Shown: positions 40,615 through 64,000 of the stretch, piece after piece
Position numbering within the stretch: the first letter of the stretch is position 1
How the letters are laid out: every line of letters starts with the position of its first letter
Assembly (NCBI GenBank): GCA_022821875.1
Contig: JAJECV010000111.1
Span: forward strand, 5,072 to 69,071
Direction: 5' to 3'
Source: Rhodothermales bacterium
GTDB taxonomy: Bacteria > Bacteroidota > Rhodothermia > Rhodothermales > Bin80
DNA length: 64,000 nt
Notes under the pieces: generated by a model
Told to the model about the DNA's origin: nothing
Databases searched by the model: none
What the model saw: only the letters and a program-made list of their open reading frames with translations
Program-made: the position numbers and the translations under genes

Positions 40615-41027
40615 GGCGAGGGTCGAAAGTAATCCTCAATCCAGTGGTGGATCTGCTGCCGCACACGTCGGAAGGCAGCAAGCCTGTCGGCATCCGAACC
40701 ACGGGCTGCACGGGGGTCTTCGAAGCGGCGGTGAAGGTTCCTTCGGGCGGGAACGAAGGGACAGGCCTCCCGCGCAGAGTCACAGACCGTCACCACGGTA
40801 TCCAGATCCATAGACAGGAATTCGCCGACATCTTTGGAGGTATGATTCCGGATGTCAATCCCGATTTCCGCCATGGCACGGACTGCCAGCGGGCTCACAC
40901 CGCCGGGTTCTGTCCCCGCACTGTAGACTTCATAGTGCTCCCCGTAAAGCTGGCGCAGCAGCCCTTCGGCCATCTGCGAGCGGGAGGAGTTATGCGTGCA
41001 GACAAACAGCACCGTCGGTTTACTCAT
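40611..41027 (-). CDS. arsC: Arsenate reductase, LMW-PTP fold
   Basis: FVCTHNSSRSQMAE, SAG, TVC..AREACP, FEDP. Confidence 0.88.
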   Translation of the reverse strand: MSKPTVLFVCTHNSSRSQMAEGLLRQLYGEHYEVYSAGTEPGGVSPLAVRAMAEIGIDIRNHTSKDVGEFLSMDLDTVVTVCDSAREACPFVPARRNLHRRFEDPRAARGSDADRLAAFRRVRQQIHHWIEDYFRPSP

Positions 41028-51003: not shown

Positions 51004-52332
51004 ATGACCGGTACAATGGACTCAAAAGATCCGAACCTCGAAAAGATAAAGTTTACGATTGGCACCTGGAATATGGACCATTGGAAGCGGACGAGAGAAC
51101 AGCGGGAAAAGGGATGGGAATATATGCGAACGGAATCCAAAGCGGATGTGATGCTTCTTCAGGAGAGTGTTGCTGCACCGGGTTTGAACCGAAGCCAGTT
51201 TGTCTATCGTGAGATTTCGGGGCATTGCCCGTGGGGGTCCAGTGTGGTTGCGTTTAACGAGGACATGAATGTTCAGGAGATTGATGCGGTGCGCACGCGT
51301 TACGGGGCTAAGCGGTTTAGCATGTTGGGGACATTTCCAGGTGCGGTGATCGTTACACAGGTTGAAGTTCCGGGAATTGGCCCGATCACCTGTGTGAGTG
51401 TTTATGGTCTTATTAATGTCTATGCGCAAACAACGATACTCCGAGTCATCGCCGATTTGATTCCTCTGTTTGATTCCCGGTTTGGCAGCCGGGTAGTGTT
51501 AGGAGGTGATCTCAATATCAGCAGTGCCTGTAACAGGGACAGACTGCACGAGCCGGAACAGATTCGTTACAGGGCCATTCTCAATGCGATAGAGTCTCTG
51601 GGGTTAATAAATCTTGCAAAAACTGCTGAAGACCGGCCAAAGTCAGTACTGAATTGCCCCTGTACCGAAAATGAGTGTTATGAAATTCCAACTTACCGCG
51701 GCGGACAACTTGACTGGCTTTATGCGACACCTGAGCTTGCCCGCAGATGTACGCGCCTGCGCGTTGACCACGATGTGGTCTATAAATTAGAGTTAAGTGA
51801 CCATGCGCCACTGATTGCAGAGTTTGAAATCCCTCCAACCGTGCCGGATCGGATTTGGGATCCGGAAGCATTCGTTGAAGAGATGAAGTTCACTGCGGGC
51901 CCGGAAGCTGCCCGGATTGCCGAGGATCTGATCAACTGGGCAGATCGTAAGCATGGCAAACTCCAATCCCCCGCGCACCGGGTGTCTTATGATCGCTTAC
52001 CGACAGGGATGGCGAGCGGCAAATTGAAGATCTGGTTCCAGTTGGATATCGTTCCCCGGGAAATCATTCAATGGACCTTCAGTATTCTCGCGGATGGCGA
52101 GATCGAAATCAATTTTCAATGGATGATTGCGCCATATGACGATTTAGATGTTAAGGAAAAACTGTGGAATGCGCTCAATCAGATTGAGGGGGTATCCCTT
52201 CAAAAGAATCTCACAGGCCGTCCGAGATTTCGAATCGGAGCGCTTGCGGAACCGGATCGGCTGGAACAGTTCACGAAGGTGTTTTCGGACATGATTGATA
52301 CCACTCTGCGTCGCAGAAATGTGGTCAAATAG
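51004..52332 (+). CDS. Endonuclease/exonuclease/phosphatase (EEP) protein with extra C-terminal domain
   Basis: TWN, LLQE, GGDLN, QLDWL, LSDHAP catalytic motifs; ~160-aa C-terminal extension. Confidence 0.85.
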   Translation: MTGTMDSKDPNLEKIKFTIGTWNMDHWKRTREQREKGWEYMRTESKADVMLLQESVAAPGLNRSQFVYREISGHCPWGSSVVAFNEDMNVQEIDAVRTRYGAKRFSMLGTFPGAVIVTQVEVPGIGPITCVSVYGLINVYAQTTILRVIADLIPLFDSRFGSRVVLGGDLNISSACNRDRLHEPEQIRYRAILNAIESLGLINLAKTAEDRPKSVLNCPCTENECYEIPTYRGGQLDWLYATPELARRCTRLRVDHDVVYKLELSDHAPLIAEFEIPPTVPDRIWDPEAFVEEMKFTAGPEAARIAEDLINWADRKHGKLQSPAHRVSYDRLPTGMASGKLKIWFQLDIVPREIIQWTFSILADGEIEINFQWMIAPYDDLDVKEKLWNALNQIEGVSLQKNLTGRPRFRIGALAEPDRLEQFTKVFSDMIDTTLRRRNVVK

Positions 52333-52580
52333 CTGCATTGGTACGATTGCTCTGATACAGGTAACAGGAATAGAACGAACTTGCAGGAAGAGAGCGTCCG
52401 TTACTTTCGCCTACAGATCTACGGATTTTGGATCACGGACTGATGGTTGTGGGTCTGGGGATCGTGAAATTTTTTCCATCAAGCGTATTGTCATGTGACA
52501 GACGCTACTCGCAGCTTCGGTGGCCAAATTCAACATGTTGCATTTTTTTCGAGTGGAGTGGAACCATTTGATGACTTATT

Positions 52581-52599
52581 CGTATAGTTCAACTATACG
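52581..52599. promoter_or_regulatory. Perfect inverted repeat CGTATAGTT-C-AACTATACG (operator-like)
   Basis: 9-bp arms with 1-nt spacer, directly visible; function unproven. Confidence 0.45.
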
Positions 52600-53183
52600 G
52601 TATAAACATTTTCCTTGTCGGGCTTTGCCACGGAGGAATCAAAACTGCATATGGATCATTTCAAACTACTTGCGGAGAATCAAGGCGGCTGGACGCTCTG
52701 TGTTGCCGTGCACGAACCTTGCGCTATCCATCAGAACTCTTGCTGTTACAAAGTTCCAGTGGGCGGGAGTAATGAACTCTTCCAGGAGTTCATACCCAAA
52801 TCTGCTATCCCTGATTACACCGAACCGGGTTGTATCAGGTGCGATAGAGAAGGGCTCAGTGTGGAATCTGGCATCTTCTTGGGCAATTCCAAAGAATACC
52901 AATGGAGGTTCTGTGGAAGAAATAATAAACATCTTCTCAGTGAGGTAGAAAAAAACAGAATTCAATGGTATCCAGGGGCCCAAATACACCTATTTTTTCA
53001 TAATAATATATGTAGCTTCGTGAAGTACCTCATGCCCGGTTTCTGGAAACGATCAATGGGGATAGCGTTATGGTTGGCTCGTAATTGGAACCAAATATAT
53101 TGTGGAATGAGCATCAATTTAAGTGATGGGTCGCTTAAGTTGATAAGGTTTCCCATTAATCAAGGAAGAATAAATCTCTAATC

Positions 53184-53660
53184 ATGATCCCAAAACCAAT
53201 TATAATTTCGGAATTATCACCGCCGGTACTCCCTCCTGGCATCCACATGGCTGACTTAACTACTGTGAAAAGACATTTAGCCTCCAGCAAATGGCGGCAG
53301 AAATTGTTCAATGGATTGGTGGAGGCTTGTAGGGTCCTGAGTAGAGCAGGGTGCCAGCGTCTGTATCTGGATGGAAGTTTCGTTACACCGAAGCCGATTC
53401 CTAATGACTATGATGTCTGCTGGGATCTAAACGGAGTGAACCTCCGGCTTGTGGATCTTGTATTCTTTGACTTCAGCAACGGTCGGGCCGCGCAAAAGGC
53501 CAAGTTCGGCGGAGAGTTTTTTCCGAGTACACATATAGCAGCTGATGCGGATGTAACATTCCTTGAGTTTTTCCAAATTGATACCGGTTCTGGAAAACAA
53601 AAAGGAATCATTGGGGTAGATCTTGCTAACGATCCAGTGCTTAATCCTTTGCGACCATGA
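53184..53660 (+). CDS. Small Pol-beta-superfamily nucleotidyltransferase-like protein (DUF6932-like)
   Basis: LPPGIH, LYLDGSFVTPKPIPNDYD (GS..DxD), KGII. Confidence 0.8.
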   Translation: MIPKPIIISELSPPVLPPGIHMADLTTVKRHLASSKWRQKLFNGLVEACRVLSRAGCQRLYLDGSFVTPKPIPNDYDVCWDLNGVNLRLVDLVFFDFSNGRAAQKAKFGGEFFPSTHIAADADVTFLEFFQIDTGSGKQKGIIGVDLANDPVLNPLRP

Positions 53661-54925
53661 TGATCCTTACTGATAAACAATACGGCGGCACTGCTGATAT
53701 GCTTGCCAAATTCAGGACGACATTGTCTGGAGTGAAAGAGAATAATAACGGAGAGGAATGGCAGCGAGATCTAATAATTGATGCTCTGCAAGCCCAAATC
53801 TCCGAACTTGAAGAAGACATGAAAAACTATCAGTCGCTAAAATCAGGGAAGATTACTGTGAGGAAGCCACAATCACTTGAAACTCTTCCCCTAACACTTA
53901 TTCAAGCTCGGATTGCAAGTGGAATGAGCCAGGCTGAGTTGGCTAAAGTGTTGGGAACAGAAGAAACTAAGTTAAGATGTTATGAAGCGTATGATTACAT
54001 CGGAACTAACCTAGCTACTTTGATTAAGGTTGCTCGCATCCTGAACATTGACGTTACTGATTTACTTGAGAATGAATCATCTCAGGGCAGTTTTCATCTT
54101 GCGTGGAAAAACATTGATGCAGTTCCCTGGGAAAAATTTCCGGCTCGGGAAATGATCAGCCGTAATTGGTTTGATGATCCAGATGATGGAAATTTGACAG
54201 AGGCGACCAAGGCATATTTCCTGCAAGTAGCGGAGACTCATTTTGAATTAGCTCTCCACCGAAAGAGCGTGCATGGTGTGCACCCTTCGGACGAATATGC
54301 TTTAATGGCATGGCAGGTACGGATACTTGAACGAGCGAGTGCATGGATAGAAAAATGGAAACTGCCGGAATTTGTCCTGGATAACAGTTGGCTTCCCGAA
54401 CTCATTGCACTTACCAGGCGACCAGATGGCCCATTTGAGGCACGCAAATTATTGGCTCGTAAGGGCATTGCTCTTGTAGTAGAAAAACATCTGCCTGGGA
54501 CATATCTCGACGGCGCAGTAATGTTTGCTCCGACCGATCATCCCGTAATTGGGTTAACGTTGCGCTTTGATCGAGTAGATAATTTTTGGTTTGTACTCTT
54601 CCACGAATTAGGTCATTTATTTCTACATCTTTTTGGAGGCATGCGCTATGACTTCTTTGATGAATCTCTTGATGAAATCACCATGTCTGAGGACAATATT
54701 GAACAAGAGGCAGACGAATTTGCATTAAATACATTAATTCCTGAAGATCAGTGGAAGCAGTGCCTTTCTCGCTTCTCATTGTCTGAAAAGGCAGTTCAAC
54801 TTGACGCAGAAAGACTCAGGGTTGACGAAAGTATATTAGCCGGTCGAATTCGTAAAGAGCAAAGCAATTACACGATTCTGAATGGGCTTATTCGATCTGG
54901 TGTTCGGGAACAATTTCTGGTGTAA
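53657..54925 (+). CDS. XRE HTH plus ImmA/IrrE metallopeptidase (HigA-like fusion)
   Basis: LIQARIASGMSQAELA HTH; TYLDGA, LTLRFDRVDNFWFVLFHELGH; EQEADEFA. Confidence 0.88.
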   Translation: MMILTDKQYGGTADMLAKFRTTLSGVKENNNGEEWQRDLIIDALQAQISELEEDMKNYQSLKSGKITVRKPQSLETLPLTLIQARIASGMSQAELAKVLGTEETKLRCYEAYDYIGTNLATLIKVARILNIDVTDLLENESSQGSFHLAWKNIDAVPWEKFPAREMISRNWFDDPDDGNLTEATKAYFLQVAETHFELALHRKSVHGVHPSDEYALMAWQVRILERASAWIEKWKLPEFVLDNSWLPELIALTRRPDGPFEARKLLARKGIALVVEKHLPGTYLDGAVMFAPTDHPVIGLTLRFDRVDNFWFVLFHELGHLFLHLFGGMRYDFFDESLDEITMSEDNIEQEADEFALNTLIPEDQWKQCLSRFSLSEKAVQLDAERLRVDESILAGRIRKEQSNYTILNGLIRSGVREQFLV

Positions 54926-54928
54926 AAA

Positions 54929-56020
54929 ATGATTTTAGGTGAAGACATGTACGTACCGGTGTTGAGTTGGAGGCAGGGTGAATATATGGCACTTTACCAC
55001 CTCACATCATCAGTCCAGAAAAAGACTGTACCTCTAATCTTTATTCCACCGATTGAGTTTGATTTTGAGACGAGGAGGAGCAAGAAGACGGTGGATGAGC
55101 ATGTTCGCCCGTTTATTGATCGTTATACGAAACGATGGGGTAAGCACCCAGCCTGGATAGGGCTGCATAGCACAATTGCAAAGGATAGAATGGATAACGG
55201 GATTCATGTTCTTGACTACATTCTTGATGGGCTAAGATCCAATCACGCACATGCTATGCCAGTATTAACACCGGAAAGTGACACAGATACTATTGCGGCC
55301 GCAGCCAGAGCAATTGGTCGAGACAGATATGGTGCTGCACTGCGTATACGGCTTGAGAACTTAATGGCCGAAGATTTTGAAATAGAAGCAGTGAAGTTGG
55401 TAGAGACGCTCTCAAGACCACTTGAGGAGATTGATCTAATCATTGACCTCAGAGCACCGAATTTCGAGCCCTATCAGGACTTTGCCAATGCGTTAATTGC
55501 GCGAATGAAAAGTTTCCGAACTCTTTCGGAGTATCGGAATCTGATATTAGTCTCCTCGGCTATTCCTGACAGTTTTGGGAATATCGAAAAGGGGAATAGT
55601 GAAATTCCACGTCATGATTGGCTGTTCTACAAGGTCGTGATTGACTCTTTATCTTATGAGATGCGTCGCCTGGTCTATGGAGACTACACAATTGTTCACC
55701 CTGAATTTAAGGTTTTGGACATGCGAATGATTCAGCCACCAGGTAAAATCGTATACACTACGCCTAAAACCTGGGCCATCTGCAAAGGTGGTTCGTTTCG
55801 CGGTCATCCTGAACAAATGGTTGATCATTGTAAGACCGTAGTGGAGAATCCCCAATTCCAGTTCCGGGGGGCCGAATTCTCTTATGGTGACCAATATATT
55901 GACCAATATAGTTCGGGAAAAATAAATCCAACTAACCTAACCCGCTGGAAGACCGTTACGATTAATCATCATATTTCAACGGTGGTAGATCAACTCTCCA
56001 ATGCTCTCGATTCACCATAG
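54929..56020 (+). CDS. Beta-family protein (T4 beta / sce7725-like)
   Basis: YVPVL.WRQGE, DLIIDL, YGDYT, FSYGD.YI, WK..TINHH pattern. Confidence 0.85.
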   Translation: MILGEDMYVPVLSWRQGEYMALYHLTSSVQKKTVPLIFIPPIEFDFETRRSKKTVDEHVRPFIDRYTKRWGKHPAWIGLHSTIAKDRMDNGIHVLDYILDGLRSNHAHAMPVLTPESDTDTIAAAARAIGRDRYGAALRIRLENLMAEDFEIEAVKLVETLSRPLEEIDLIIDLRAPNFEPYQDFANALIARMKSFRTLSEYRNLILVSSAIPDSFGNIEKGNSEIPRHDWLFYKVVIDSLSYEMRRLVYGDYTIVHPEFKVLDMRMIQPPGKIVYTTPKTWAICKGGSFRGHPEQMVDHCKTVVENPQFQFRGAEFSYGDQYIDQYSSGKINPTNLTRWKTVTINHHISTVVDQLSNALDSP

Positions 56021-56573
56021 CAATTTTAATCAGTCTGGTTAATTCATCTTCAGACACTTTTTCAACTAGTAGCTTGTATAGTTTGGTGCGGGACGCGCGA
56101 AGATTCGCTGGGCGAGTGTCATAATTTAAAAGAATATCTATAACTTCGCTGCGCCACAGGAGGTGTGCAAGAATGAATGGATCAACAGAAGGATTCCTCT
56201 CAGCTCTTCGCACATCTCTCAGAACAATCTGACCTCTTAAATCAACCTGGACCTCCTTCAGACCACACCATGCGGGGATCATTTCGAGGGTGGACTTCAA
56301 GTGCTTAGTTGCCACAACCAATGTTAGTCTATGTAATGCTTGGGTATAAATCTTCATTTGGCCTTTTAATCGATCAAGGCGGTCTCGCTCGCTTTTGATT
56401 TCGTACCCATGAAATTCATCACCTATCACGGTTACATCCACGCGTCTCTTTGCATGAGCCAGTCCAAGTTCGTGAATCACTAACTCGCCGGTATTATTGG
56501 TGTGTATTCCTGAGCATCCCCCAAATAAGATGTTACGGATATCAGGATCAAGAATGTTTGAAGTTTGAATCAC
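55962..56573 (-). CDS. sce7726-family (PD-(D/E)xK-like) protein
   Basis: DIR, HELG, RVDV, HGYEIKSERDRLDRL..Q..Y, PAWCG, LLWRSE. Confidence 0.85.
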   Translation of the reverse strand: MIQTSNILDPDIRNILFGGCSGIHTNNTGELVIHELGLAHAKRRVDVTVIGDEFHGYEIKSERDRLDRLKGQMKIYTQALHRLTLVVATKHLKSTLEMIPAWCGLKEVQVDLRGQIVLRDVRRAERNPSVDPFILAHLLWRSEVIDILLNYDTRPANLRASRTKLYKLLVEKVSEDELTRLIKIAMVNREHWRVDLPPLKYDD

Positions 56574-57084
56574 TTGATTGAGCGCAGGTTAAACCTGGAA
56601 GTAAGAACTTCTACTTGCAGGGGTTAGTGTGTTGAATTTGAATGCTCAGGGAAACCTGGATAGTAAAAGAGCGAAGCCGCATTCCAATCTCAATCAACTA
56701 TTCTTGCAGTTGAGTTTCATTGCCTGGTCCAATTCCAATATCCATACCAAGGAAGTCATTCCTCTTCTATTTGATGAACAGAGATATACCCATATCGTCT
56801 GTACTAGCAGGGTTTCAAGGGGGATGCACGAAATGATCTTCCCAACGAGGTCATCTAGATCTCAGTGGACTAAATATTTCTCTTGCGAGGATATGTCTAT
56901 CCACCGGGATGATATTTTGGCCCGTAGGCATATCAGCGAATAGTGACATCCGCTGTAAGGGATAAAGATTCCATTATACAGAAGCAATTGCATTCGCGTC
57001 TTTGGCTGGACTCTACCGTGAGAGTCTCGTCCAGCACAAGTTACTCATCCAATCCATAATATACCAAAATTAAGTTAAGTTGCC

Positions 57085-57780
57085 TCATTCTGCTACGATT
57101 ACGATGGCTTTTTCTTTGGGCCCATAAAATGGATCACTCACCGCCAGCGCATCTTCTCTGTTCAATTGAATATCTGGAGCAGACGAGGGTTTGCATGAGT
57201 AGCGACCTTTATGGTCAATTTCTACTTGGACCTGCTGCATGTGATTTCCTTGGTTGATGATAAGAACTCTTTTCCCTAAGTAATCAGAGTCGTAGCAGGC
57301 GTAGGCGCTGCCAGTTTCCTGAATGCTGCCTGGTATACCGATTTCAATGATTTCCCCGACTCTGTGAAATGGCACTTCACGTTCAGAAGCCAACTGTCTC
57401 AGTTCCTTTACTCCACTCTTTTCTGCGCATTCTTTCTCCGATCTCAATCTTGCATCCAAATCGTGGGTGGGAAAAGGCTTGCATACCTGACTGGTGAGGG
57501 CCTGGGCAAGTTCAGGATCATCAACCCGGTAGATATTTTTATTTGCAAGCCATTGCATCAGCCCCCCGCGGGTATAGTCATCCGAGTATAATGAATCCAA
57601 AAATTTTGCAGGGTTGATTTCCCCATTTTCGGCCTCAATTACCATATCACCAAGTGGAGTGAGAATCGTCATTTTCTGCGAATTGCTATCACGATTAATA
57701 AACAAGAACACGCTGACAAGTAGTGCTATACCCAATAGCCACCAGGGGACATGATCTTTTTTCTTTCTTGCTTCCGTCAT
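57085..57780 (-). CDS. Membrane-anchored hypothetical protein, possible C-terminal double-psi beta-barrel-like domain
   Basis: Basic N-terminus plus TM WWLLGIALLVSVFLFI; 4 Cys; GKRVLIIN..VQVEI..C..DIQLNREDA resembles RlpA/DPBB; starts 11 bp after the E2-E1 gene. Confidence 0.7.
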   Translation of the reverse strand: MTEARKKKDHVPWWLLGIALLVSVFLFINRDSNSQKMTILTPLGDMVIEAENGEINPAKFLDSLYSDDYTRGGLMQWLANKNIYRVDDPELAQALTSQVCKPFPTHDLDARLRSEKECAEKSGVKELRQLASEREVPFHRVGEIIEIGIPGSIQETGSAYACYDSDYLGKRVLIINQGNHMQQVQVEIDHKGRYSCKPSSAPDIQLNREDALAVSDPFYGPKEKAIVIVAE

Positions 57781-57791
57781 TTTACAGATAT

Positions 57792-59615
57792 CTAATGTGG
57801 CTCAATCATGTTGTTGGCATTGCGGGTGCTGCGATGAAGAATCTGAGGAATTCCCAGCTCCTCAGATTGCTCCAGAACGACAAAATCAGTGGCGGTATCT
57901 GGGTTCTGGACAAACTGGACAACCAGTTTGGTAGCTAGGCTTGACCATAAACCTAAGTCATCGTTTCGAGCCTCAAACACAGGATGGAAGCATCCAACGC
58001 CCTCCCATTGGATACCGTCATCCCTGAGTCGATCACGTTCCTCTTTGAGATAGGGGGCTAAACTGTCATTAAAATTGTCTACGGGAAACCTCATTCTATG
58101 TTCATAGAAAGCATAGAATCTGCGAGCTTTCCTACCGATTGAGATGGAAACGAAGTGCTTGGGTTGTTCCCAGTCTAATGAGTTAAGATGAGCGGTTACA
58201 TCATCAGATCCGGTAGCATCAATGATTAGATCTGCTTTTAGGATCTCCTCAGGGGGCTCGGTTTCCGGGCAGAATTTCTCTGCAATCGATCGCACACATG
58301 CGTGTGGGTTTGCAGCGTTCAGACGATCCTTAAGTCTCTCGGCTTTTTGTCCTTCCAAATCATACATAGTTAGTGTGTGTCGGACGAGATTTCCGGCCAC
58401 GAAATGATCCATATCAACCAGAGTTACTTCGGTTATCCCACCACGAACAAGGTGCTCAGCCAGCGGCGCTCCAAGGGCTCCGACTCCAATGACAATGGTC
58501 TTCATGTTTCTCAATAGTTCAGGTAATTGACCCCGCGTAGCAAGTGCAGTTGGATGCCAGTTCTCGGTTTTCAACCAAGGGAGTTGTTTGTTATCACCGA
58601 GGTTTCTTCCACGATAGGCATCCCACAGACTACTTTTATTGCTTCGAAAACCATCATAATGATTTTCAAAAGCAGGCAACAAGAGTGCTTGCCAGTGGAG
58701 GAGATGAGGATATTCACCAATTACCTTGGGAATTAAAGCACCAAGGAGCAAGATGGTTGGCTGACCATCGGGGTTTAGGCGAATTGCTTTTTTGATCAAG
58801 TCATTGAGTTCCCGTCTTGGGCAGGATTTGCGCAAGTCCCCCCAGGTCCGAGGTTGTTGCCACGGATCAACCACCGGCAGTTCATTCAATTGAATCCACA
58901 GACCTTTTGCAGGCTCAGATGGATAAGTAGACAGGTGTGTCCCCCAATTCAGTTCTCGGAGAATATTTTTATCTGAATCACGATAAGCTTGAACAACTCC
59001 AAAATTCCCGGAAATCACACTTAGATCAACAATGCCATATTTGGGTGCATTGAAAGAAGATATTTTATGATTTAGTTTTTCCGACACAATGACAGTATGA
59101 AGAACCTTCTTTATCGGCTTAGGTTGATGAAAGGGGAGCTCAAAGTGCTCCCCTTCACGCATGAGATCGTCATTCGCGGCACACTCTAACCACTTGACCG
59201 CACGTTCAAATGTCCATTTGAGCCGAGTACGCCAATCTCGTGGTTCTGTAGATGCACCCACCCGATCCAATACTCTTAGATGACTGTCAAGGCATAGGAA
59301 TGAATTTTGCCAGGGCTTGGTGGATGCGGGCATCTGGATGGGATACTGATGCGGGAAAAGCCCGGTAATACTATTCTTCTTGGCAGGAAAGAAATCAATA
59401 TGTCCGTCTGGATAAAGACTGGAAACCCGTACGTACCAATCTGTCGTATCAGGCACCGGACTGTTTTCCGGTACATCTACAGAGATACTACATTGAATCG
59501 TCCATAGTTTATCTTCGGTGCACCATTTCCATTTATCCAAAAGTCTTACCCCCGCAATCCCCAGTACTCTCTGTGTAGCGGCGCAAAGAATGTCGGGGAC
59601 CTCGGGAGAATTCAT
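57792..59615 (-). CDS. Cap2-like E2-E1 (ThiF) fusion ubiquitin-like transferase
   Basis: E2 part YPDG..FPHQ..FLCLD (Cys108); E1 IGVGALGA, DMD..GNLVRH, KAE, IIDATG, EGVGCFHPVF (Cys~542); 607 aa. Confidence 0.9.
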   Translation of the reverse strand: MNSPEVPDILCAATQRVLGIAGVRLLDKWKWCTEDKLWTIQCSISVDVPENSPVPDTTDWYVRVSSLYPDGHIDFFPAKKNSITGLFPHQYPIQMPASTKPWQNSFLCLDSHLRVLDRVGASTEPRDWRTRLKWTFERAVKWLECAANDDLMREGEHFELPFHQPKPIKKVLHTVIVSEKLNHKISSFNAPKYGIVDLSVISGNFGVVQAYRDSDKNILRELNWGTHLSTYPSEPAKGLWIQLNELPVVDPWQQPRTWGDLRKSCPRRELNDLIKKAIRLNPDGQPTILLLGALIPKVIGEYPHLLHWQALLLPAFENHYDGFRSNKSSLWDAYRGRNLGDNKQLPWLKTENWHPTALATRGQLPELLRNMKTIVIGVGALGAPLAEHLVRGGITEVTLVDMDHFVAGNLVRHTLTMYDLEGQKAERLKDRLNAANPHACVRSIAEKFCPETEPPEEILKADLIIDATGSDDVTAHLNSLDWEQPKHFVSISIGRKARRFYAFYEHRMRFPVDNFNDSLAPYLKEERDRLRDDGIQWEGVGCFHPVFEARNDDLGLWSSLATKLVVQFVQNPDTATDFVVLEQSEELGIPQILHRSTRNANNMIEPH

Positions 59616-59639
59616 TACTCGAATCGTTAATATTCGTAA

Positions 59640-60107
59640 TTATGCAAATTTGCCACCACGCGGCTGAACAGATTTCTTATTCTTACCCTCGGAGTTACCA
59701 GAGCCTTGAGTCTCATCTTTCACTTCTGCATTAGGTGCAAATTTCTTGACAAGTTCAATGCCATTCTCGCAAGCAGATTTCGAATTATAGCCCTCGCTGG
59801 AGATGGCAATGATTTTGTTGTTTCCACTTTGCAGTCTCCATCGGTATTCCTTGGCTTGATTCTCGTACACCTCAAATTCTGGTGTACCGCCCTGTCCGTG
59901 GTGGCCGTCGGCCCCCGGTTTCGTGAGGTCATGAATCGGGGCAGTTGGTGCAAGCCGTTGAACACGGTCAATGTTTGCTTCTGCCGTGGCCCTGCGTGTA
60001 AAGGACTCGCCAGGAACAGCGATCTCCTCATGGTTTGCGGCATAAAATGTCCAGCGGTACTGATCCTTTACGTCTTGAAAGATTTTGAAATATGGTTTCA
60101 TGATCAT
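59640..60107 (-). CDS. YegP/UPF0339 tandem DUF1508 protein with extended C-terminal tail ending GGKFA
   Basis: Two repeats F.IFQD..QYRW.F.AAN.E.IA..GE.F and FEVYE..EYRWRL.SGNNKIIA.SSEGY.SK..CENGI; tail GSGNSEGKNKKSVQPRGGKFA. Confidence 0.88.
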   Translation of the reverse strand: MIMKPYFKIFQDVKDQYRWTFYAANHEEIAVPGESFTRRATAEANIDRVQRLAPTAPIHDLTKPGADGHHGQGGTPEFEVYENQAKEYRWRLQSGNNKIIAISSEGYNSKSACENGIELVKKFAPNAEVKDETQGSGNSEGKNKKSVQPRGGKFA

Positions 60108-60312
60108 ATCAGTTTAAGGTTGAAGTGTCTCCTCCTCGTTTGAGGGAACACAGGATGATTGATTAAGATCTCGCAGAAATATTCTCCAAGATCCGTCTGG
60201 ATGTGTACAAGCCAACCACAGGCGAGTCCTTAACTGCAACCCGCTAATCGCGAGCGCCGTACCCTCAAGTTGCTTGCTATTGTTATATTTGACTGATCTA
60301 GCCATTGTAAGC

Positions 60313-60356
60313 GGCGAATTCGCCAATTCCGATTTCGTCATTTTCGAGAATACGAC
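60313..60356. promoter_or_regulatory. Palindromes in the divergent promoter (candidate CapH-type operators)
   Basis: Perfect GGCGAATTCGCC at 60313-60324 and imperfect TCGTCATTTTC/GAGAATACGA just downstream. Confidence 0.45.
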
Positions 60357-60380
60357 TTCGTAACTTAAAGGTTTCAGAAA

Positions 60381-60728
60381 ATGAAAAAAAATCACCCAAC
60401 TGAAATTTTTCCCAGCCGACTCCGCAGCACGCGAGAGAAACGGGCACTGAACCAGGCTGAATTAGCTAAGCGGGCAGGTCTACAGGCTTCCGCCGTTTCT
60501 CATTTTGAGACAGGAACGAGAAAGCCATCTTTTGATAATCTTCGCCGACTTGCTGATGCACTGGATGTAACTACAGATTATTTGATTGGTCGAGTAGGTG
60601 ATAATCAGGTCAGTGTAGGCCATGACCAGTTATATCGTAACATAGGTAACCTGACGGCTGAGGATCGTGATTTTGCGGAAAGCTTCATCAAACTTCTTGC
60701 CCAAAAGTCAAAGAAGCATAGGCAATGA
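60381..60728 (+). CDS. XRE-family HTH repressor (CapH-like)
   Basis: RLRSTRE..LNQAELAKRAG..VSHFETGTRKPS..LADALDVTTDYLIG. Confidence 0.88.
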   Translation: MKKNHPTEIFPSRLRSTREKRALNQAELAKRAGLQASAVSHFETGTRKPSFDNLRRLADALDVTTDYLIGRVGDNQVSVGHDQLYRNIGNLTAEDRDFAESFIKLLAQKSKKHRQ

Positions 60729-61603
60729 ATCGCAATTCTTTTCGCTTCAAAGTGGTGTCGGTTGCAGAAAAGGTTGTCTCAGATCAAGACATCAAGCAGC
60801 TGCCCATAAATCCCATTACAATAGCCCGTAGCCAGGGTATTGAGGTCACGCCTCAACCAGTGCATGCTCAGGGATTTTCCGGAATGCTCATGCGTGTTAA
60901 CAACAAGTTTGGAATTACTTATGCTACACATATTGATAGTGTTGGCTTCAAGAACTTCAGCATTGCACATGAACTGGGACATTACTTCTTGCCTGGGCAC
61001 ATTGATGCGGTATTTGCGGCGGATAGTCCTCACACTTCCAGTGCGGGATTCGTCTCCACCGACAGGTATGAAATGGAAGCAGACTGTTTTGCTGCGCGAT
61101 TGCTGATGCCAAATAGGTTGTTCAAGGAAGCAATGTTGGGTGCGGATGAAGGTCTTAACGGGATAGAGGAACTTTCCCAAATCTGCCAGACATCCCTCAC
61201 GGCAACAGCGATACGTTATACAGAGTGTGTTCAGTATCCAATGGCTGTCATTGTGAGTGTCGGTGATAAGGTCAGTTATTGCTTTATGTCTGAGTCACTG
61301 AAAGAGGTTCGCGGTCTTACTTGGATCAGTAAAAATCAATGTCTACCCAAAAATACGGTCACCTATGATTTCAATCAGAATGATCAGCGAGTCCAAGGTG
61401 CACAACGAGATGCGGATATATCAGATCTGCAAGACTGGTTTGGAGGTGACGTTTCCGTCCAGCTTGAGGAGGAGGTTCAAGGCTTAGGACATTATGGGAA
61501 GACGCTAACCGTATTGACTGCTCCAGACCTTTTTGATAAACTGGAAGAAGTTGATGCAAATGAAGCCCTTCATAAATCATGGGAGCCAAAATTCAGGCTT
61601 TAA
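60725..61603 (+). CDS. ImmA/IrrE-family metallopeptidase (CapP-like)
   Basis: FSIAHELGH, EMEADCFAARLLMP, TSLTATAIRY, C-terminal GAF-like region; overlaps HTH stop (ATGA). Confidence 0.88.
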   Translation: MNRNSFRFKVVSVAEKVVSDQDIKQLPINPITIARSQGIEVTPQPVHAQGFSGMLMRVNNKFGITYATHIDSVGFKNFSIAHELGHYFLPGHIDAVFAADSPHTSSAGFVSTDRYEMEADCFAARLLMPNRLFKEAMLGADEGLNGIEELSQICQTSLTATAIRYTECVQYPMAVIVSVGDKVSYCFMSESLKEVRGLTWISKNQCLPKNTVTYDFNQNDQRVQGAQRDADISDLQDWFGGDVSVQLEEEVQGLGHYGKTLTVLTAPDLFDKLEEVDANEALHKSWEPKFRL

Positions 61604-61618
61604 TTTTCCCGATGTATG

Positions 61619-61639
61619 CAGGAGTAATGCATACTCCTG
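61619..61639 (+). terminator. Stem-loop after capP-like gene
   Basis: CAGGAGTA-atgca-TACTCCTG 8-bp stem; only a weak U-tract. Confidence 0.4.
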
Positions 61640-61684
61640 GATTTCATGTTCCCGTATATTAGTTTCTGTTAAAAGCCATCCCAC

Positions 61685-63853
61685 ATGACTGAATCTGTAT
61701 CAAATAGGCCCATCGCCGACGAAAACCTGATATCTAGCATTGCCACGAAGCACGGAAATATACCAGAGACACTCTTTGTCAGTCTAACCAGTGAGACCGC
61801 CGTCGGTCAGGTGTTGCTATTGGACTATGATTCAGCCACTTTAGCTGTTCACGATTATCATAAGGAGCAGGTAGGTGGTCTAGCACGCGGTATGTTTCTG
61901 ATTTCAGGTCCCTCTCCTTCAAACGAGGGAGCCAGTTTTGTACTTATGCGGGTAGTCGGAGCGAAACGTTTAGCCAATCAGACATCTACTGATGAGGCAC
62001 GACTTACTGCTGCGCAGGAAAGTATCGGTCAGGATATCTGGTCAGATAAACTTGCCAAATGGATCGCTAACGAAATTGCTCTGGGTGGTATTGAGGCTCA
62101 TATACTTGGAACATTAACATGGAGTAGTGGGGGACTTCGGTTTGCGGAGGATACGGCCAATTATTATTCTGCGCGTGGGGCGTATGTCTGGAAACCTACG
62201 GGTCCCTTGCTTGAGAGTATCGTGAATCTGTCGCAACGGGGAAATAGCATTGATCTTTCAGGGCTGAGTAACTATGATAGATCGGATATCAGGGTTCGCG
62301 TTGCAAAGACCCGCTTCGCAGCTGCTGATGACCGAGAAAGAAGTGATGTGCATGTTCCGGTTCGGATTGATCCCACTGATCTGCTCAAGCGGCGGACAGC
62401 TTTTTTCGGAATGTCTCGAAGCGGGAAATCTAATGCGATGAAAATTACAGCCCAAGCTGTCTACATGCTCCGTAAAGAACATCCGGATTTCAGGGTGGGT
62501 CAATTGATTTTTGATCCCAATGGTGAGTATGCCCAAGACAATCCACAGGACGGACGCGGCCTCCATCGGATTCATGAGTTGGTAAATAAACCTCGGGGCG
62601 GAGAGATTGAGACCTATGGAACGTATGCTCCTCCGACCGACACTGAAAGAAAGATCACAAAGATCAATTTTTTTGGGAATCCGATTCCTCTGAACAAACG
62701 AACTGATAGGGACTATGTCGAGAAATCACTGGAGCAACTCCTTGTGGGACGTGATCTCATAAGGGAAAGGATGTCGGCAGAGACGACCCGTTTTACAAGT
62801 AATTTCCGAGATGCTGACCTTTCTATTCCGGCAAATCTCGCCGACCGTAGTGTTGCTACCCGATTTCACCGGGCTATAATGGTCCATCAAGTTGCGCTTG
62901 CTGCAGCGGGATTTGAAGCCCCTCCGTATCCCAATATCAAGGGACTGTTTGGCAAGGATTTTTGTAATGCTCTCCAGTCCAACGAGAATAGTACGTCAGA
63001 TCATGTAGACAAGTACCGCTGGGCGGGCGAAATTCTAAGAAATCCTACACCGTCTTGGGATCAACTTAAGGCTGCATTTGAGGCTGTTCACCGCTTTATT
63101 CATGATAAAACGAGTTATTATCGATCATTTGAGAAGAAATACAGTGATAGATCCAATTCTGGAGATAATTGGGTAGATGCTCGTTTGGAATCTCTTCTGT
63201 TTATCTTTGATACCCCCAATGGGGTCAGAACATTCCAGGATTTGCGTGACCAGCACTCGATAAATACATCTTCTGATTACGCGGATGATATTGTCAACGA
63301 CCTGAAAGCGGGTAAGCTCGTGATTTTTGATCAGTCAATTGGCGACCCTAAATTAAATCAGCAGGCTGCCGAACGTATCATGTGGAGGGTTTTTCGGGAA
63401 CAGCAGAAGATATTCACATCAGGTAAAAATCATCTTCCGTATCAACAGCATGTATTAGTGTACATTGAAGAGGCCCACAATCTTTTACCGCGCACTGGCA
63501 CCAGAGATGTTTTGTCTACGGTGTGGGCACGGGCAGCAAAAGAAGGTGGAAAAATGAATCTCGGAGTAGTCCTGGCCACTCAGGCACCGAGTTCGGTTCT
63601 TCCCGAGATATTGAGCGAGACTGATAATTGGTTCATCGCACACCTGAATTCAGATAACGAAGCAAGGGTGGTAGAGCGTTACTTAGACTTCGCACATTTC
63701 ATTCCTCAAATTCGCAGAGTATCAGAGCCGGGTTTTATCAGACTTCGAACCCTTTCATCAGGGTACACGGTGCCGGTTCAACTGGATCGGTTTAAACTTC
63801 CGGATCTTTTACCCGAACCGGACGCTAATACCAAAAATGAACTCTTTAGTTGA
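61685..63853 (+). CDS. HerA/FtsK-like (DUF87) ATPase
   Basis: HAS-barrel-like N-terminus; Walker A GMSRSGKS; FDPNGEY; Walker B YIEEAH; KEGGK; LATQ. Confidence 0.9.
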   Translation: MTESVSNRPIADENLISSIATKHGNIPETLFVSLTSETAVGQVLLLDYDSATLAVHDYHKEQVGGLARGMFLISGPSPSNEGASFVLMRVVGAKRLANQTSTDEARLTAAQESIGQDIWSDKLAKWIANEIALGGIEAHILGTLTWSSGGLRFAEDTANYYSARGAYVWKPTGPLLESIVNLSQRGNSIDLSGLSNYDRSDIRVRVAKTRFAAADDRERSDVHVPVRIDPTDLLKRRTAFFGMSRSGKSNAMKITAQAVYMLRKEHPDFRVGQLIFDPNGEYAQDNPQDGRGLHRIHELVNKPRGGEIETYGTYAPPTDTERKITKINFFGNPIPLNKRTDRDYVEKSLEQLLVGRDLIRERMSAETTRFTSNFRDADLSIPANLADRSVATRFHRAIMVHQVALAAAGFEAPPYPNIKGLFGKDFCNALQSNENSTSDHVDKYRWAGEILRNPTPSWDQLKAAFEAVHRFIHDKTSYYRSFEKKYSDRSNSGDNWVDARLESLLFIFDTPNGVRTFQDLRDQHSINTSSDYADDIVNDLKAGKLVIFDQSIGDPKLNQQAAERIMWRVFREQQKIFTSGKNHLPYQQHVLVYIEEAHNLLPRTGTRDVLSTVWARAAKEGGKMNLGVVLATQAPSSVLPEILSETDNWFIAHLNSDNEARVVERYLDFAHFIPQIRRVSEPGFIRLRTLSSGYTVPVQLDRFKLPDLLPEPDANTKNELFS

Positions 63854-64000
63854 TGCCCTATCCAAACGAGCGTGCTGGTTTTTTTGCTGTGGGAGATCTG
63901 GAACGTCGCCAGATTATTGAGGCATTCGGAGATCAACTTGAGCAGGGGAGCAATCTTCCGCGTGATCCCTTACCTGCTTTTGAGCCATTTCTACAGGACG
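63853..64000 (+). CDS. 5' part of HerA-coupled gene, possibly NurA-like nuclease (truncated by window)
   Basis: ATG overlaps HerA TGA; frame MPYPNERAGFFAVG.. open to window end; identity inferred from context only. Confidence 0.5.
   Translation, partial: MPYPNERAGFFAVGDLERRQIIEAFGDQLEQGSNLPRDPLPAFEPFLQD

What the first reader, a model, noticed from the sequence alone, without database searches (positions are those of the whole stretch)
59640..59705. YegP protein carries a grafted CD-NTase-like C-terminal tail (..SVQPRGGKFA)
Seen: after the second DUF1508 repeat, a Gly/Ser/Lys-rich ~21-aa extension ends G-K-F-A-stop. From memory, Enterobacter cloacae CdnD, the structurally studied Cap2 substrate, ends ..PAEPQKTGRFA, and ordinary YegP proteins stop soon after the last repeat. 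Inference: the P-x2/3-G-[RK]-F-[AG] tail is a portable conjugation tag; ending at the mature residue means no processing protease is needed.
Basis: partly seen in the sequence, partly recalled or inferred. Interest (0 to 1): 0.85.

Follow-up and report, generated by a model that had tools for sequence, protein, structure and literature searches.

The report
YegP with borrowed Cap2 conjugation tail
A small stress-type protein (YegP) carries the same short C-terminal tail that bacterial cGAS-like enzymes use to be attached to other proteins, and it sits next to the attaching enzyme with no cGAS-like gene present, so an immune ubiquitin-like machine seems to have been given a new cargo.

Summary
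Window 59640-60107 (-) encodes a 155-aa tandem-DUF1508 (YegP) protein with a disordered extension of about 21 aa ending G-K-F-A-stop. The next gene, 24 nt downstream, is a full-length Cap2-like E2-E1 fusion with both catalytic cysteines. capH/capP regulators lie divergently upstream. The genome (95.75% complete) gave no CD-NTase and no JAB match.

In 20 of 20 family members (37-99% identity) Phe is at -2, with R/K at -3 and A/G/S at -1, while the linker varies. All 4 intact tailed YegP genes whose flanks I could read sit beside a Cap2-like gene. One is on a Spirosoma plasmid that also has a Cap3-like JAB and no CD-NTase. None of 80 viral-contig DUF1508 genes has the tail or an E1-E2 neighbour. 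Only 4 of 150 DUF1508 cluster representatives end this way.

Of 11 CD-NTases next to related Cap2 genes, 8 end exactly [RK]-F-[AG]. These include the E. cloacae-type tail, which has been solved inside the Cap2 E1 site.

My reading is a CBASS-derived conjugation module whose substrate is YegP instead of a cyclase. Conjugation itself is inferred, not shown. I found no description of it in the held literature. I rate it a new variant of a known kind, of high interest.

The parts
59640..59705 (-). Coding sequence of the C-terminal extension (21 aa plus stop) of the YegP protein, ending G-K-F-A. This is the proposed Cap2 recognition and adenylation tail.
   Evidence: Translation. pLDDT is below 50 for residues 136-155. 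In 20 of 20 relatives the end is F at -2, R/K at -3 and A/G/S at -1.
59640..60107 (-). YegP-RFA gene, 155 aa: two DUF1508 repeats plus the tail. The real start may be the third codon, because relatives begin two or three residues later.
   Evidence: ORF. PF07411 at 2e-33 with two stretches. NCBIfam HVO_2922. Fold match to 2K8E and 2K49. Family alignments.
57792..59615 (-). Cap2-like E2-E1 fusion, 607 aa. It starts 24 nt after the YegP stop. The E2 catalytic Cys is C108 and the E1 catalytic Cys is C542. The ThiF adenylation motifs are G377/G379/G382, D401, R412 and K424.
   Evidence: PADLOC E1-E2 model PDLC00848 at 1.9e-168. E. cloacae Cap2 (7TO3) at 7.9e-75 over residues 7-575, with both mutated cysteine positions of that construct aligned to Cys here. 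These residues are invariant in 33 sequences.
57085..57780 (-). Third gene of the operon, 231 aa, starting 11 nt after the E1-E2 stop. It has an N-terminal hydrophobic helix, belongs to no known family, and its role is unknown. It is present in only some of the related loci.
   Evidence: No Pfam, PADLOC or NCBIfam hit. 74% identical copy in L005. Absent from L006. 7 homologues, three on contigs of the same length as YegP-RFA or E1-E2 relatives. AF2 model unusable at pLDDT 40.8.
60108..60380 (.). Divergent intergenic region between YegP and capH, the presumed promoter and operator. It contains a TACGA-NN-TCGTA palindrome at about 60351-60363.
   Evidence: 83% mean column identity among the window, L005 and L006. 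Function is inferred by analogy with CapH-regulated operons.
60381..60728 (+). capH-like HTH repressor, 115 aa.
   Evidence: PADLOC capH at 2.8e-25; Pfam HTH_3.
60725..61603 (+). capP-like M78/ImmA-type metallopeptidase, 292 aa.
   Evidence: PADLOC capP at 9.5e-62; Pfam Peptidase_M78.

Best explanation
This is a CBASS-derived protein-conjugation module in which a tandem-DUF1508 (YegP) protein has taken the place of the CD-NTase as substrate of a Cap2-type E2-E1 enzyme.

YegP carries a flexible tail of about 20-23 residues ending [RK]-F-A, the same ending as the CD-NTases served by related Cap2 enzymes.

The proposed sequence of events is inferred by analogy with E. cloacae Cap2-CdnD:
1. Stress or DNA damage makes CapP remove the CapH repressor, and the operon is transcribed.
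2. The E1 domain of the Cap2-like protein binds the YegP tail and adenylates the terminal Ala.
3. The tail passes as a thioester to C542 (E1) and then to C108 (E2).
4. It is joined to an amine, most likely a lysine, on a target protein that is still unknown.

What is shown:
- the tail and its conservation;
- the intact catalytic residues;
- the gene linkage;
- the match of the tail to that of CD-NTases;
- no CD-NTase match in this genome.

What is inferred:
- adenylation and transfer of YegP;
- induction through CapH/CapP;
- a defensive role;
- any role for the 231-aa membrane protein.
For: 1. Anatomy. YegP, the E2-E1 fusion and the 231-aa gene are packed with 24-nt and 11-nt spacers, with capH/capP divergent upstream.

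2. The enzyme looks active. It aligns to solved E. cloacae Cap2 over residues 7-575 (7.9e-75). Cys is kept at both catalytic positions (C108, C542), and these with the ThiF motifs are invariant in 33 sequences.

3. There is no other obvious substrate. The genome (95.75% complete) gave no SMODS match and no Prok-JAB match, and this is its only DUF1508 gene.

4. Selection acts on the very end of the tail. In 20 relatives at 37-99% identity the counts are F at -2 in 20 of 20; R 19 and K 1 at -3; A 18, G 1 and S 1 at -1. The linker varies in sequence, but its length is 20-23 aa in 19 of 20.

5. Linkage.
- 4 of 4 intact tailed YegP genes with readable flanks are followed by a Cap2-like gene: window, L005, L006, and the Spirosoma plasmid L106.
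- 4 further YegP/E1-E2 pairs have identical longest-contig lengths: P0003/P0167, P0004/P0168, P0010/P0169 and P0015/P0173. This is indirect.
- Controls: 0 of 80 viral DUF1508 loci have the tail or an E1-E2 relative. Only 4 of 150 representatives end [RK]F[AG].

6. The tail matches that of CD-NTases.
- 11 SMODS genes directly upstream of related Cap2 genes all have x-F-[AGS] at or within 4 residues of the end.
- 8 of the 11 end exactly [RK]F[AG].
- The deeper YegP-RFA members (P0014, P0016, P0033, P0055, P0060) also share a G-F-[TV] about 16 residues from the end with these CD-NTases.

7. The E. cloacae CdnD tail ending GRFA was captured AMP-linked in the Cap2 E1 site (passages of 10.1101/2022.03.31.486616).

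8. The Spirosoma operon has YegP-RFA, Cap2 and a Cap3-like JAB. That is the full type II accessory set, with no SMODS match on the 201,926-bp plasmid.

9. Complex prediction of E2-E1 with YegP gave weak support.
- The score was 0.55 (runs 0.57, 0.43, 0.55) and the best of 3 controls was 0.00.
- The runs agree in at least 51% of contacts, and the partner's pLDDT is at least 79.
- The mark was reached by 58 of 80 solved complexes and 2 of 110 mismatched pairs. At 0.60 or under it was reached by only 7 of those 80, and by both mismatches that passed.
- My own alignments were used, so these counts hold only roughly.
- A like complex (Cap2-CdnD) is solved, so the pass may come from memory.
Against: - There is no biochemical evidence. 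Nothing here shows that YegP is adenylated or conjugated, or what the target is.
- The complex prediction gives only weak support, and no contacts were returned.
- In 2 of the 4 loci the E1-E2 frame is interrupted once: in L005 at a run of eight A, and in L106. These may be long-read assembly errors or real decay.
- For 9-10 of the 20 family members the neighbours could not be read.
- No effector was recognised. The 231-aa gene is missing from L006.
- The window protein has K rather than R at -3. That is seen only in it and in its 99% identical cluster P0001.
- The genome of L005 does hold a SMODS gene elsewhere, about 730 kb away. It follows a patatin gene and ends without the motif.
Confidence: 0.7

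Rival explanations
1. Decaying CBASS remnant. The cyclase and effector were lost, the E2-E1 is on its way out, and YegP merely sits in the vacated slot as a CapH/CapP-controlled stress gene. The tail has no function with the enzyme.
For: No CD-NTase, JAB or recognisable effector was found in the window's genome. The E1-E2 frame is broken once in L005 and once in L106. YegP homologues follow other defence regulators (capK/capS, 57 cases) without any E1-E2 being mentioned (passage of PMC13373217).
Against: The terminal three residues are conserved in 20 of 20 relatives down to 37% identity while the linker drifts. The E2-E1 catalytic residues are invariant in 33 sequences. The nine E2-E1 proteins at 51-93% identity form one well-supported clade (SH-aLRT 100), and YegP and E2-E1 identities to the window fall in parallel. 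The intergenic region is 83% conserved.
Confidence: 0.07
2. Pseudo-substrate or regulator. YegP-RFA docks its tail in the E1 site to hold the enzyme in check or to recruit it, and the enzyme conjugates something else.
For: The tail matches a known E1-site ligand. The complex prediction is weakly positive with controls at 0.00 (score 0.55; see the full caveats under the best explanation). The target of CBASS Cap2 conjugation is itself poorly defined.
Against: No other protein in the operon ends in a small residue after Phe. The 231-aa protein ends V-A-E. In the solved system, the protein bearing this tail is the one that is adenylated. The tail ends exactly at the residue that would be activated.
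Confidence: 0.12
3. Unrelated tail function. The R-F-A end is a convergent signal for something else, such as proteolysis, secretion or membrane targeting, and its adjacency to E2-E1 is coincidental.
For: Short C-terminal motifs can serve many systems. Close YegP relatives P0047 and P0054 carry other, Cys-rich C-terminal extensions.
Against: Co-occurrence with Cap2-like genes is 4 of 4 in readable loci against 0 of 80 controls. The same ending is found on 8 of 11 Cap2-linked CD-NTases from bacteria and archaea. The likeness extends about 16 residues upstream (G-F-[TV]) in the deeper members.
Confidence: 0.05

Closest known systems
Type II CBASS accessory pathway: Cap2 (E2-E1 fusion) conjugating the CD-NTase C-terminus, with Cap3 (JAB) reversing it. 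E. cloacae Cap2-CdnD, PDB 7TO3/7TQD; preprint 10.1101/2022.03.31.486616.
   Same: A full-length Cap2-type enzyme with both catalytic cysteines. The substrate gene is directly upstream. The substrate has a disordered tail of about 20 residues ending G-[RK]-F-A, as CdnD does. The locus is regulated by capH/capP-type genes. The Spirosoma version also has a Cap3-like JAB.
   Different: The substrate is a tandem-DUF1508 protein, not a nucleotidyltransferase. The window's genome gave no SMODS match and no JAB match, and no cyclic-nucleotide effector was recognised. The output therefore cannot be priming of second-messenger synthesis.
Bub and Bil operons, in particular the 7 Bub ubiquitin-like proteins built as tandem DUF1508 plus one beta-grasp domain (10.1101/2024.11.21.623966, passages).
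   Same: A tandem DUF1508 unit is placed at the N-terminal side of the element that an E1 activates. The setting is a ubiquitin-like conjugation operon with capH/capP-, capW- or capK/capS-type control.
   Different: There is no beta-grasp domain here. The E1-recognised element is only a disordered tail. The enzyme is a Cap2-type E2-E1 fusion, not separate Bub or Bil E1 and E2 proteins.
Ordinary YegP / UPF0339 / HVO_2922 proteins (PF07411; PDB 2K8E, 2K49, 6Q2Z).
   Same: The same two-repeat fold (TM-score 0.83-0.84 to 2K8E and 2K49) and the same Pfam family.
   Different: Ordinary members end within a few residues of the last repeat and have no Cap2 neighbour. This family adds the 20-23-aa tail.
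6A-MBL system (NCBIfam NF058523, cap2_3 protein).
   Same: Distant homology of the E1/E2 region (7.1e-35).
   Different: The score of 120.7 bits is far below the 320-bit cut-off. There is no fused JAB and no metallo-beta-lactamase gene.

Membership tests
YegP / DUF1508 (PF07411) | One or more DUF1508 repeats; tandem repeats form a pseudo-dimer fold. | tested here: met
   Two stretches match at 2e-33. The AF2 model matches E. coli YegP 2K8E (E 5.6e-09, TM-score 0.84 normalised to the target).
Cap2 (CBASS E2-E1 fusion) | N-terminal E2-like domain with catalytic Cys, a linker, and a C-terminal ThiF/E1 adenylation domain with catalytic Cys. | tested here: met
   PADLOC E1-E2 model at 1.9e-168 over residues 2-594. 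7TO3 aligns over residues 7-575. C108 and C542 align with the two mutated cysteine positions. These residues and the GxGxxG, D401, R412 and K424 motifs are invariant.
Cap2 (CBASS E2-E1 fusion) | Adenylates and conjugates the C-terminus of the protein encoded beside it. | not testable with these tools
   Only a weak complex prediction is available: score 0.55, best control 0.00. This needs biochemistry.
Type II CBASS | A CD-NTase (SMODS) gene in the operon. | tested here: not met
   No SMODS match in the whole genome, which is 95.75% complete. None in the operon ORFs. None on the Spirosoma plasmid.
Type II CBASS | A Cap3 JAB/JAMM peptidase. | tested here: not met
   No Prok-JAB match in the window's genome. 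The feature is met in the Spirosoma relative.
Type II CBASS | A cyclic-nucleotide-activated effector (SAVED, patatin, TM, endonuclease and the like). | tested here: inconclusive
   The 231-aa protein has a hydrophobic N-terminal helix but matches no family. Its structure model is unusable.
Bub / Bil ubiquitin-like systems | A beta-grasp ubiquitin-like protein, with separate E1 and E2 proteins. | tested here: not met
   YegP is made of DUF1508 repeats plus a disordered tail. E2 and E1 are fused, in the Cap2 manner.
CapH/CapP regulator pair | An HTH repressor gene followed by an M78-type peptidase gene, divergent from the controlled operon. | tested here: met
   PADLOC capH at 2.8e-25 and capP at 9.5e-62. 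The orientation is divergent. The same pair stands in L005, L006 and L106. Cleavage and induction were not tested.
6A-MBL | A cap2_3 fusion scoring above the NCBIfam cut-off, plus an MBL-fold gene. | tested here: not met
   120.7 bits against a cut-off of 320. No MBL gene among the ORFs scanned.

The most novel reading that the evidence does not exclude
The roughly 20-residue CD-NTase tail is a self-contained, transferable address tag for Cap2-type E1 enzymes. Grafted onto YegP, it turns a non-beta-grasp, non-enzymatic protein into a true protein modifier. That modifier would be attached to host or phage targets as the output of an inducible stress or anti-phage pathway that uses no nucleotide signal. 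The graft, or the transfer of the tagged YegP gene, has happened in at least two separate Cap2 lineages: the Rhodothermales type without a JAB and the Spirosoma type with one.
Probability: 0.45. Interest if true: 0.85.

Novelty: new variant of a known kind. Interest (0 to 1): 0.78.

Why it matters
Cap2 is known only as the enzyme that conjugates CD-NTases in type II CBASS. What it conjugates them to, and why, is still poorly understood. A natural system in which the same enzyme type serves a small, inert-looking protein would matter in four ways.

1. It would show that recognition rests on a short portable tail rather than on the cyclase fold.
2. It would give a minimal two-gene system for studying Cap2 specificity and target choice without the confounding cyclase activity.
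3. It would give the widespread but functionless YegP/DUF1508 family a first concrete biochemical role. It would also tie together three separate observations: DUF1508-ubiquitin-like fusions in Bub operons, yegP genes behind capK/capS, and DUF1508 'sensor' domains in Menshen.
4. The tail could be used as a genetically encoded conjugation tag.

Tried and rejected
The 231-aa third gene
- The AlphaFold2 model has mean pLDDT 40.8, so I ran no fold search on it.
- The ESM Atlas gave no hit at 0.9 or above.
- Pfam, PADLOC and NCBIfam found nothing.
- Its role is left open.

Whirly/PC4 likeness of tandem DUF1508
- A passage of PMC12065111 proposes this likeness.
- Foldseek against the PDB returned only DUF1508 structures at E<=0.001, so I could not confirm it.

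More family loci
- The genome-contig scan gave only 2 close loci.
- The metagenome-contig scan gave only the frameshifted L009.
- Viral contigs held no tailed member.
- Sampling the phylum found E2-E1 relatives in 3 of 401 genomes, the window's own included.

Trees
- The careful tree did not finish in time, so a quick IQ-TREE was used instead, followed by a FastTree.
- Both are rooted at the midpoint only and have long branches.
- I draw no donor or order of events from them.

Explanations considered and rejected
- A programmed frameshift in L009. Its neighbouring genes are intact and the two breaks fall in a 460-base gene, so decay is simpler.
- The HerA-like gene as part of the module. It follows capP in the window and in L006, but is missing in L005.
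- Lysines in the tail as a conserved self-conjugation site. 4 of 20 members have no Lys in the tail.

Tools and files that were closed
- The look-up of encoding contigs was stated closed and I did not call it.
Three of them may bear on how often yegP is followed by an E1-E2 and on tail logos, and I could not see them: Dataset EV2 of PMC13373217, Table S1 of 10.1101/2024.11.21.623966, and Supplementary Table 3 and Extended Data Fig. 8 of 10.1101/2022.03.31.486616.
Full report
1. What is in the window

The minus strand between 57085 and 60107 holds three tightly packed genes.

The first gene (59640-60107, 155 aa) is a YegP-type protein.
- Pfam finds two DUF1508 repeats at 2e-33.
- NCBIfam finds HVO_2922 repeats.
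- An AlphaFold2 model built on 20 relatives has mean pLDDT 81.8. The two repeats are folded and residues 136-155 are below pLDDT 50.
- Foldseek matches the model to E. coli YegP 2K8E and to 2K49, with TM-scores of 0.84 and 0.83 normalised to the target.
- The finding's coordinates, 59640-59705 (-), translate to GSGNSEGKNKKSVQPRGGKFA and a stop.

The second gene (57792-59615, 607 aa) starts 24 nt after the YegP stop and is a Cap2-type E2-E1 fusion.
- The PADLOC E1-E2 model PDLC00848 matches at 1.9e-168 over residues 2-594.
- The solved E. cloacae Cap2 (7TO3) aligns over residues 7-575 at 7.9e-75.
- That PDB construct carries C109A and C548A (passages of 10.1101/2022.03.31.486616). Both positions align with cysteines here, C108 and C542.
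- These cysteines and the ThiF motifs (G377, G379, G382, D401, R412, K424) are invariant in an alignment of 33 relatives.

The third gene (57085-57780, 231 aa) starts 11 nt further on. It has a hydrophobic N-terminal helix and matches no family.

Divergently upstream lie a capH-like HTH gene (PADLOC capH, 2.8e-25) and a capP-like M78 peptidase gene (capP, 9.5e-62).

The whole genome (3.68 Mb, 95.75% complete) gave no SMODS/CD-NTase match, no Prok-JAB match and no other DUF1508 gene.

The region from about 52 kb to the end of the window has 44-47% G+C, against 52-58% before it. It is full of defence genes, so it looks like an acquired defence island.

2. The tail is under selection at its very end

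A word-index search found 17 relatives at 56-99% identity, and 17 of 17 end [RK]-F-[AG].

The exhaustive HMMER search found 2678 DUF1508 proteins at E<=0.001. Among the 150 best cluster representatives, 4 end [RK]-F-[AG] (P0002, P0015, P0033, P0060) and 1 ends R-F-S (P0055). The other 145 end in unrelated ways, mostly within a few residues of the last repeat.

In the joint alignment of 20 tailed proteins (37-99% identity to the window) the counts are as follows.

| Position | Residues |
|---|---|
| -1 | A 18, G 1, S 1 |
| -2 | F 20 |
| -3 | R 19, K 1 |
| -4 | G 15 of 20 |
| -7 | P 12 of 20 |

Positions further upstream vary freely. The extension after the last conserved Thr is 20-23 residues long in 19 of 20 and 35 residues in one.

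3. The tail goes with a Cap2-type gene

I could read the flanks of four intact tailed genes. All four are followed directly by a Cap2-like gene, and all four have an HTH plus M78-peptidase pair divergently upstream:
- the window;
- L005, a Rhodothermales MAG;
- L006, a second Rhodothermales MAG;
- L106, a plasmid of the isolate Spirosoma sp. KNUC1025 (NZ_CP087140.1).

In L106 the annotated 'YegP family protein' of 148 aa has two DUF1508 repeats and ends ..SGGGRFA. It is 50% identical to the deep family member P0060.

Four more YegP/E2-E1 pairs come from contigs with identical longest-contig lengths (2623, 217859, 10166 and 10324). This suggests, but does not prove, that each pair lies on one contig.

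E2-E1 relatives fall into a group of 8 at 52-93% identity, followed by a gap down to 37% or less. In a quick tree that group, joined by the L006 protein (nine proteins at 51-93% identity in the tree alignment), forms one clade with SH-aLRT 100 among Cap2 sequences.

Controls:
- 80 DUF1508 loci on viral contigs gave 0 of 80 with a [RK]F[AGS] end and 0 of 80 with an E2-E1 relative within 5 kb.
- Of 8 further DUF1508 loci, 0 of 8 have an E2-E1 relative. None of the 7 whose ORF I could read ends in the motif. L008 could not be read cleanly.
- A Haloarcula plasmid copy is a plain 116-aa protein with no ThiF neighbour.

One exception is informative. L009 carries a 50% identical YegP-like gene next to a Piwi-domain Argonaute and a SIR2_2 gene, and no E2-E1 lies in the 9.8 kb held.
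- The gene is broken by two frameshifts.
- After the second break, the frame that continues ends ..KWHRFA-stop.
- The neighbouring genes of 370-633 aa are intact.
- I therefore read it as a decayed tailed YegP.
- With n = 1, this fits dependence of the tail on the enzyme but does not prove it.

4. The tail is the tail of the CD-NTases that related Cap2 enzymes serve

I read the gene directly upstream of 11 different Cap2 relatives. They came from G211 (a genome of the same phylum), from IMG/VR contigs, and from plasmids of Nostoc, Haloplanus, Halobaculum, Deinococcus, Desulfosarcina, Priestia, Salmonella and Sphingomonas. On plasmids I looked at 9 of the 32 records that matched. All 11 upstream genes are SMODS proteins of 359-389 aa.

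Their endings:

| Ending | Number | Loci |
|---|---|---|
| R-F-A | 7 | L016, L019, L107, L108, L109, L112, L113 |
| R-F-G | 1 | L111 |
| L-F-G | 1 | L110 |
| R-F-S plus three more residues | 1 | L018 |
| Q-F-A plus four more residues | 1 | L114 |

So 8 of 11 end exactly [RK]F[AG].

The likeness goes beyond the last residues. Several CD-NTases carry G-F-[TV] or G-Y-T about 16 residues from the end. So do the deeper YegP-RFA members P0014, P0016, P0033, P0055 and P0060, while P0013 and the Spirosoma protein have Y in that place. The window's own subgroup has lost that part.

The E. cloacae-type tail (..KPAEPQKTGRFA) is the one crystallised in the Cap2 E1 active site as an AMP conjugate. Deleting the last 19 residues or mutating the end abolished conjugation (passages of 10.1101/2022.03.31.486616).

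A type I CBASS cyclase in the genome of L005 follows a patatin gene, lies about 730 kb from the YegP locus, and ends ..GKTFPP without the motif.

5. Two architectures

The Rhodothermales type is capH/capP | YegP-RFA, Cap2-like, and often the 231-aa gene.
- The 231-aa gene is present in the window and in L005.
- It is absent from L006, where insertion-sequence remnants follow.
- I found no JAB in the locus.

The Spirosoma type is HTH/ImmA | haem peroxidase, YegP-RFA, Cap2-like, and a 161-aa JAB.
- The JAB matches Prok-JAB at 7.3e-17. It is not listed in the plasmid's gene table.
- There is no SMODS match on the plasmid.

In a FastTree, the first piece of the Spirosoma enzyme does not join the Rhodothermales-type clade. 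It sits, with weak support (0.82), among CD-NTase-linked Cap2 proteins. So the pairing may have arisen twice or moved between lineages. The tree is too weak to decide.

In L005 and L106 the E2-E1 frame is interrupted once. In L005 the break is at a run of eight A where the window has six A and a G. I cannot tell assembly error from decay.

6. Mechanism

The best-supported reading is that YegP-RFA is the substrate of the adjoining Cap2-like enzyme. The tail would enter the E1 site, the terminal Ala would be adenylated and passed through C542 and C108, and YegP would then be joined to a target.

- The score was 0.55 (runs 0.57, 0.43, 0.55) and the best of three controls was 0.00.
- The runs agree in at least 51% of contacts, and the partner's pLDDT is at least 79.
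- The mark was reached by 58 of 80 solved complexes and 2 of 110 mismatches. At 0.60 or under it was reached by only 7 of those 80, and by both mismatches that passed.
- My own alignments were used, so these counts hold only roughly.
- A like complex is solved, so the pass may reflect memory.
- No contacts were returned.

Induction through CapH/CapP is inferred from gene order and from an intergenic region that is 83% conserved and holds a TACGA-NN-TCGTA palindrome.

What conjugated YegP does is open. Three published observations make DUF1508 a recurring cargo or sensor in inducible defence operons:
- tandem DUF1508 fused to a beta-grasp domain in 7 Bub ubiquitin-like proteins (passages of 10.1101/2024.11.21.623966);
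- yegP genes behind capK/capS in 57 cases (passages of PMC13373217);
- tandem DUF1508 as a proposed sensor in Menshen NsnA (passages of PMC12065111).

7. Comparison with what is known, and novelty

The system is not a CBASS, because it lacks the defining cyclase. It is not a Bub or Bil system, because it has no beta-grasp protein and its E2 and E1 are fused. It is not 6A-MBL, because it scores below the family cut-off. It works like the Cap2 branch of type II CBASS with the substrate swapped.

I found no description of a YegP-Cap2 pairing in the held literature. These are the full-text searches I ran:
- DUF1508 + Cap2
- YegP + CBASS
- DUF1508 + anti-phage
- YegP + ubiquitin
- Cap2-like / Cap2 homolog / E1-E2 fusion
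- DUF1508 / UPF0339 / HVO_2922, which returned 15 papers
- 6A-MBL

Apart from the papers whose passages are cited above, and PMC13276650 and 10.1101/2025.09.30.679545, which I read only for passages on 6A-MBL, I saw the papers in these searches only as listings. Subscription journals and supplements are not covered, so prior mention elsewhere cannot be excluded.

8. Verdict

I rate it a new variant of a known kind, with interest 0.78.

Noticed in passing
L009:3357-3871 and 3912-6913: A YegP-like gene, 50% identical to the window's, is broken by two frameshifts. After the second break the continuing frame ends ..KWHRFA-stop. It lies between an XRE-M78 fusion regulator and a Piwi-domain Argonaute plus a SIR2_2 gene. 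It looks like a decayed tailed YegP in front of a different defence system.
   Followed up: partly
L106:2900-7145 (Spirosoma sp. KNUC1025 plasmid NZ_CP087140.1): The operon runs haem peroxidase, YegP-RFA, Cap2-like gene (in two frames) and a 161-aa JAB. The JAB is missing from the plasmid's distributed gene table. The peroxidase as first gene is unexplained.
   Followed up: partly
L018:3913-4998 and L114:2850-3974: Two Cap2-linked CD-NTases carry extra residues after the F-[A/S] motif (..GRFS+QIC and ..HQFA+ESDS). Some substrates may therefore need C-terminal trimming before activation.
   Followed up: no
window 53184-56020: A three-gene set on the plus strand: DUF6932 protein, XRE-M78 protein (PADLOC PD-Lambda-2_B, 4.5e-73) and Beta protein (PD-Lambda-2_C, 2.3e-41). 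It looks like a PD-Lambda-2-type defence system.
   Followed up: no
window 55962-56573 (-): An sce7726 family protein (NCBIfam 2.6e-42; PADLOC 'cll' 1.3e-24) lies between the PD-Lambda-2-like genes and the YegP operon.
   Followed up: no
window 61685-63853 (+) and 63850-63999 (+, runs off the window): A HerA-like ATPase of 722 aa lies directly after capP on the same strand, followed by another gene. The same arrangement is in L006 but not in L005. It may be a separate HerA-based system, or one co-regulated by CapH/CapP.
   Followed up: partly
window 41020-44955 (-): The DNA polymerase III alpha subunit gene contains an intein (Intein_splicing, 5.9e-14, residues 760-904).
   Followed up: no
window about 52000-64000: G+C drops to 44-47% from 52-58% in the preceding 50 kb, coinciding with the cluster of defence genes. 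No tRNA gene was found anywhere in the window.
   Followed up: partly
P0047 and P0054: Two close tandem-DUF1508 relatives (40-50% identity) carry different, cysteine-rich C-terminal extensions instead of the R-F-A tail. YegP proteins may take several kinds of C-terminal add-on.
   Followed up: no
L005:7298-7320 and L106:about 6255-6330: The Cap2-like gene is interrupted by one frame break in each of these two YegP-linked loci. In L005 the break is at a run of eight A. Assembly error and real decay cannot be told apart here.
   Followed up: partly
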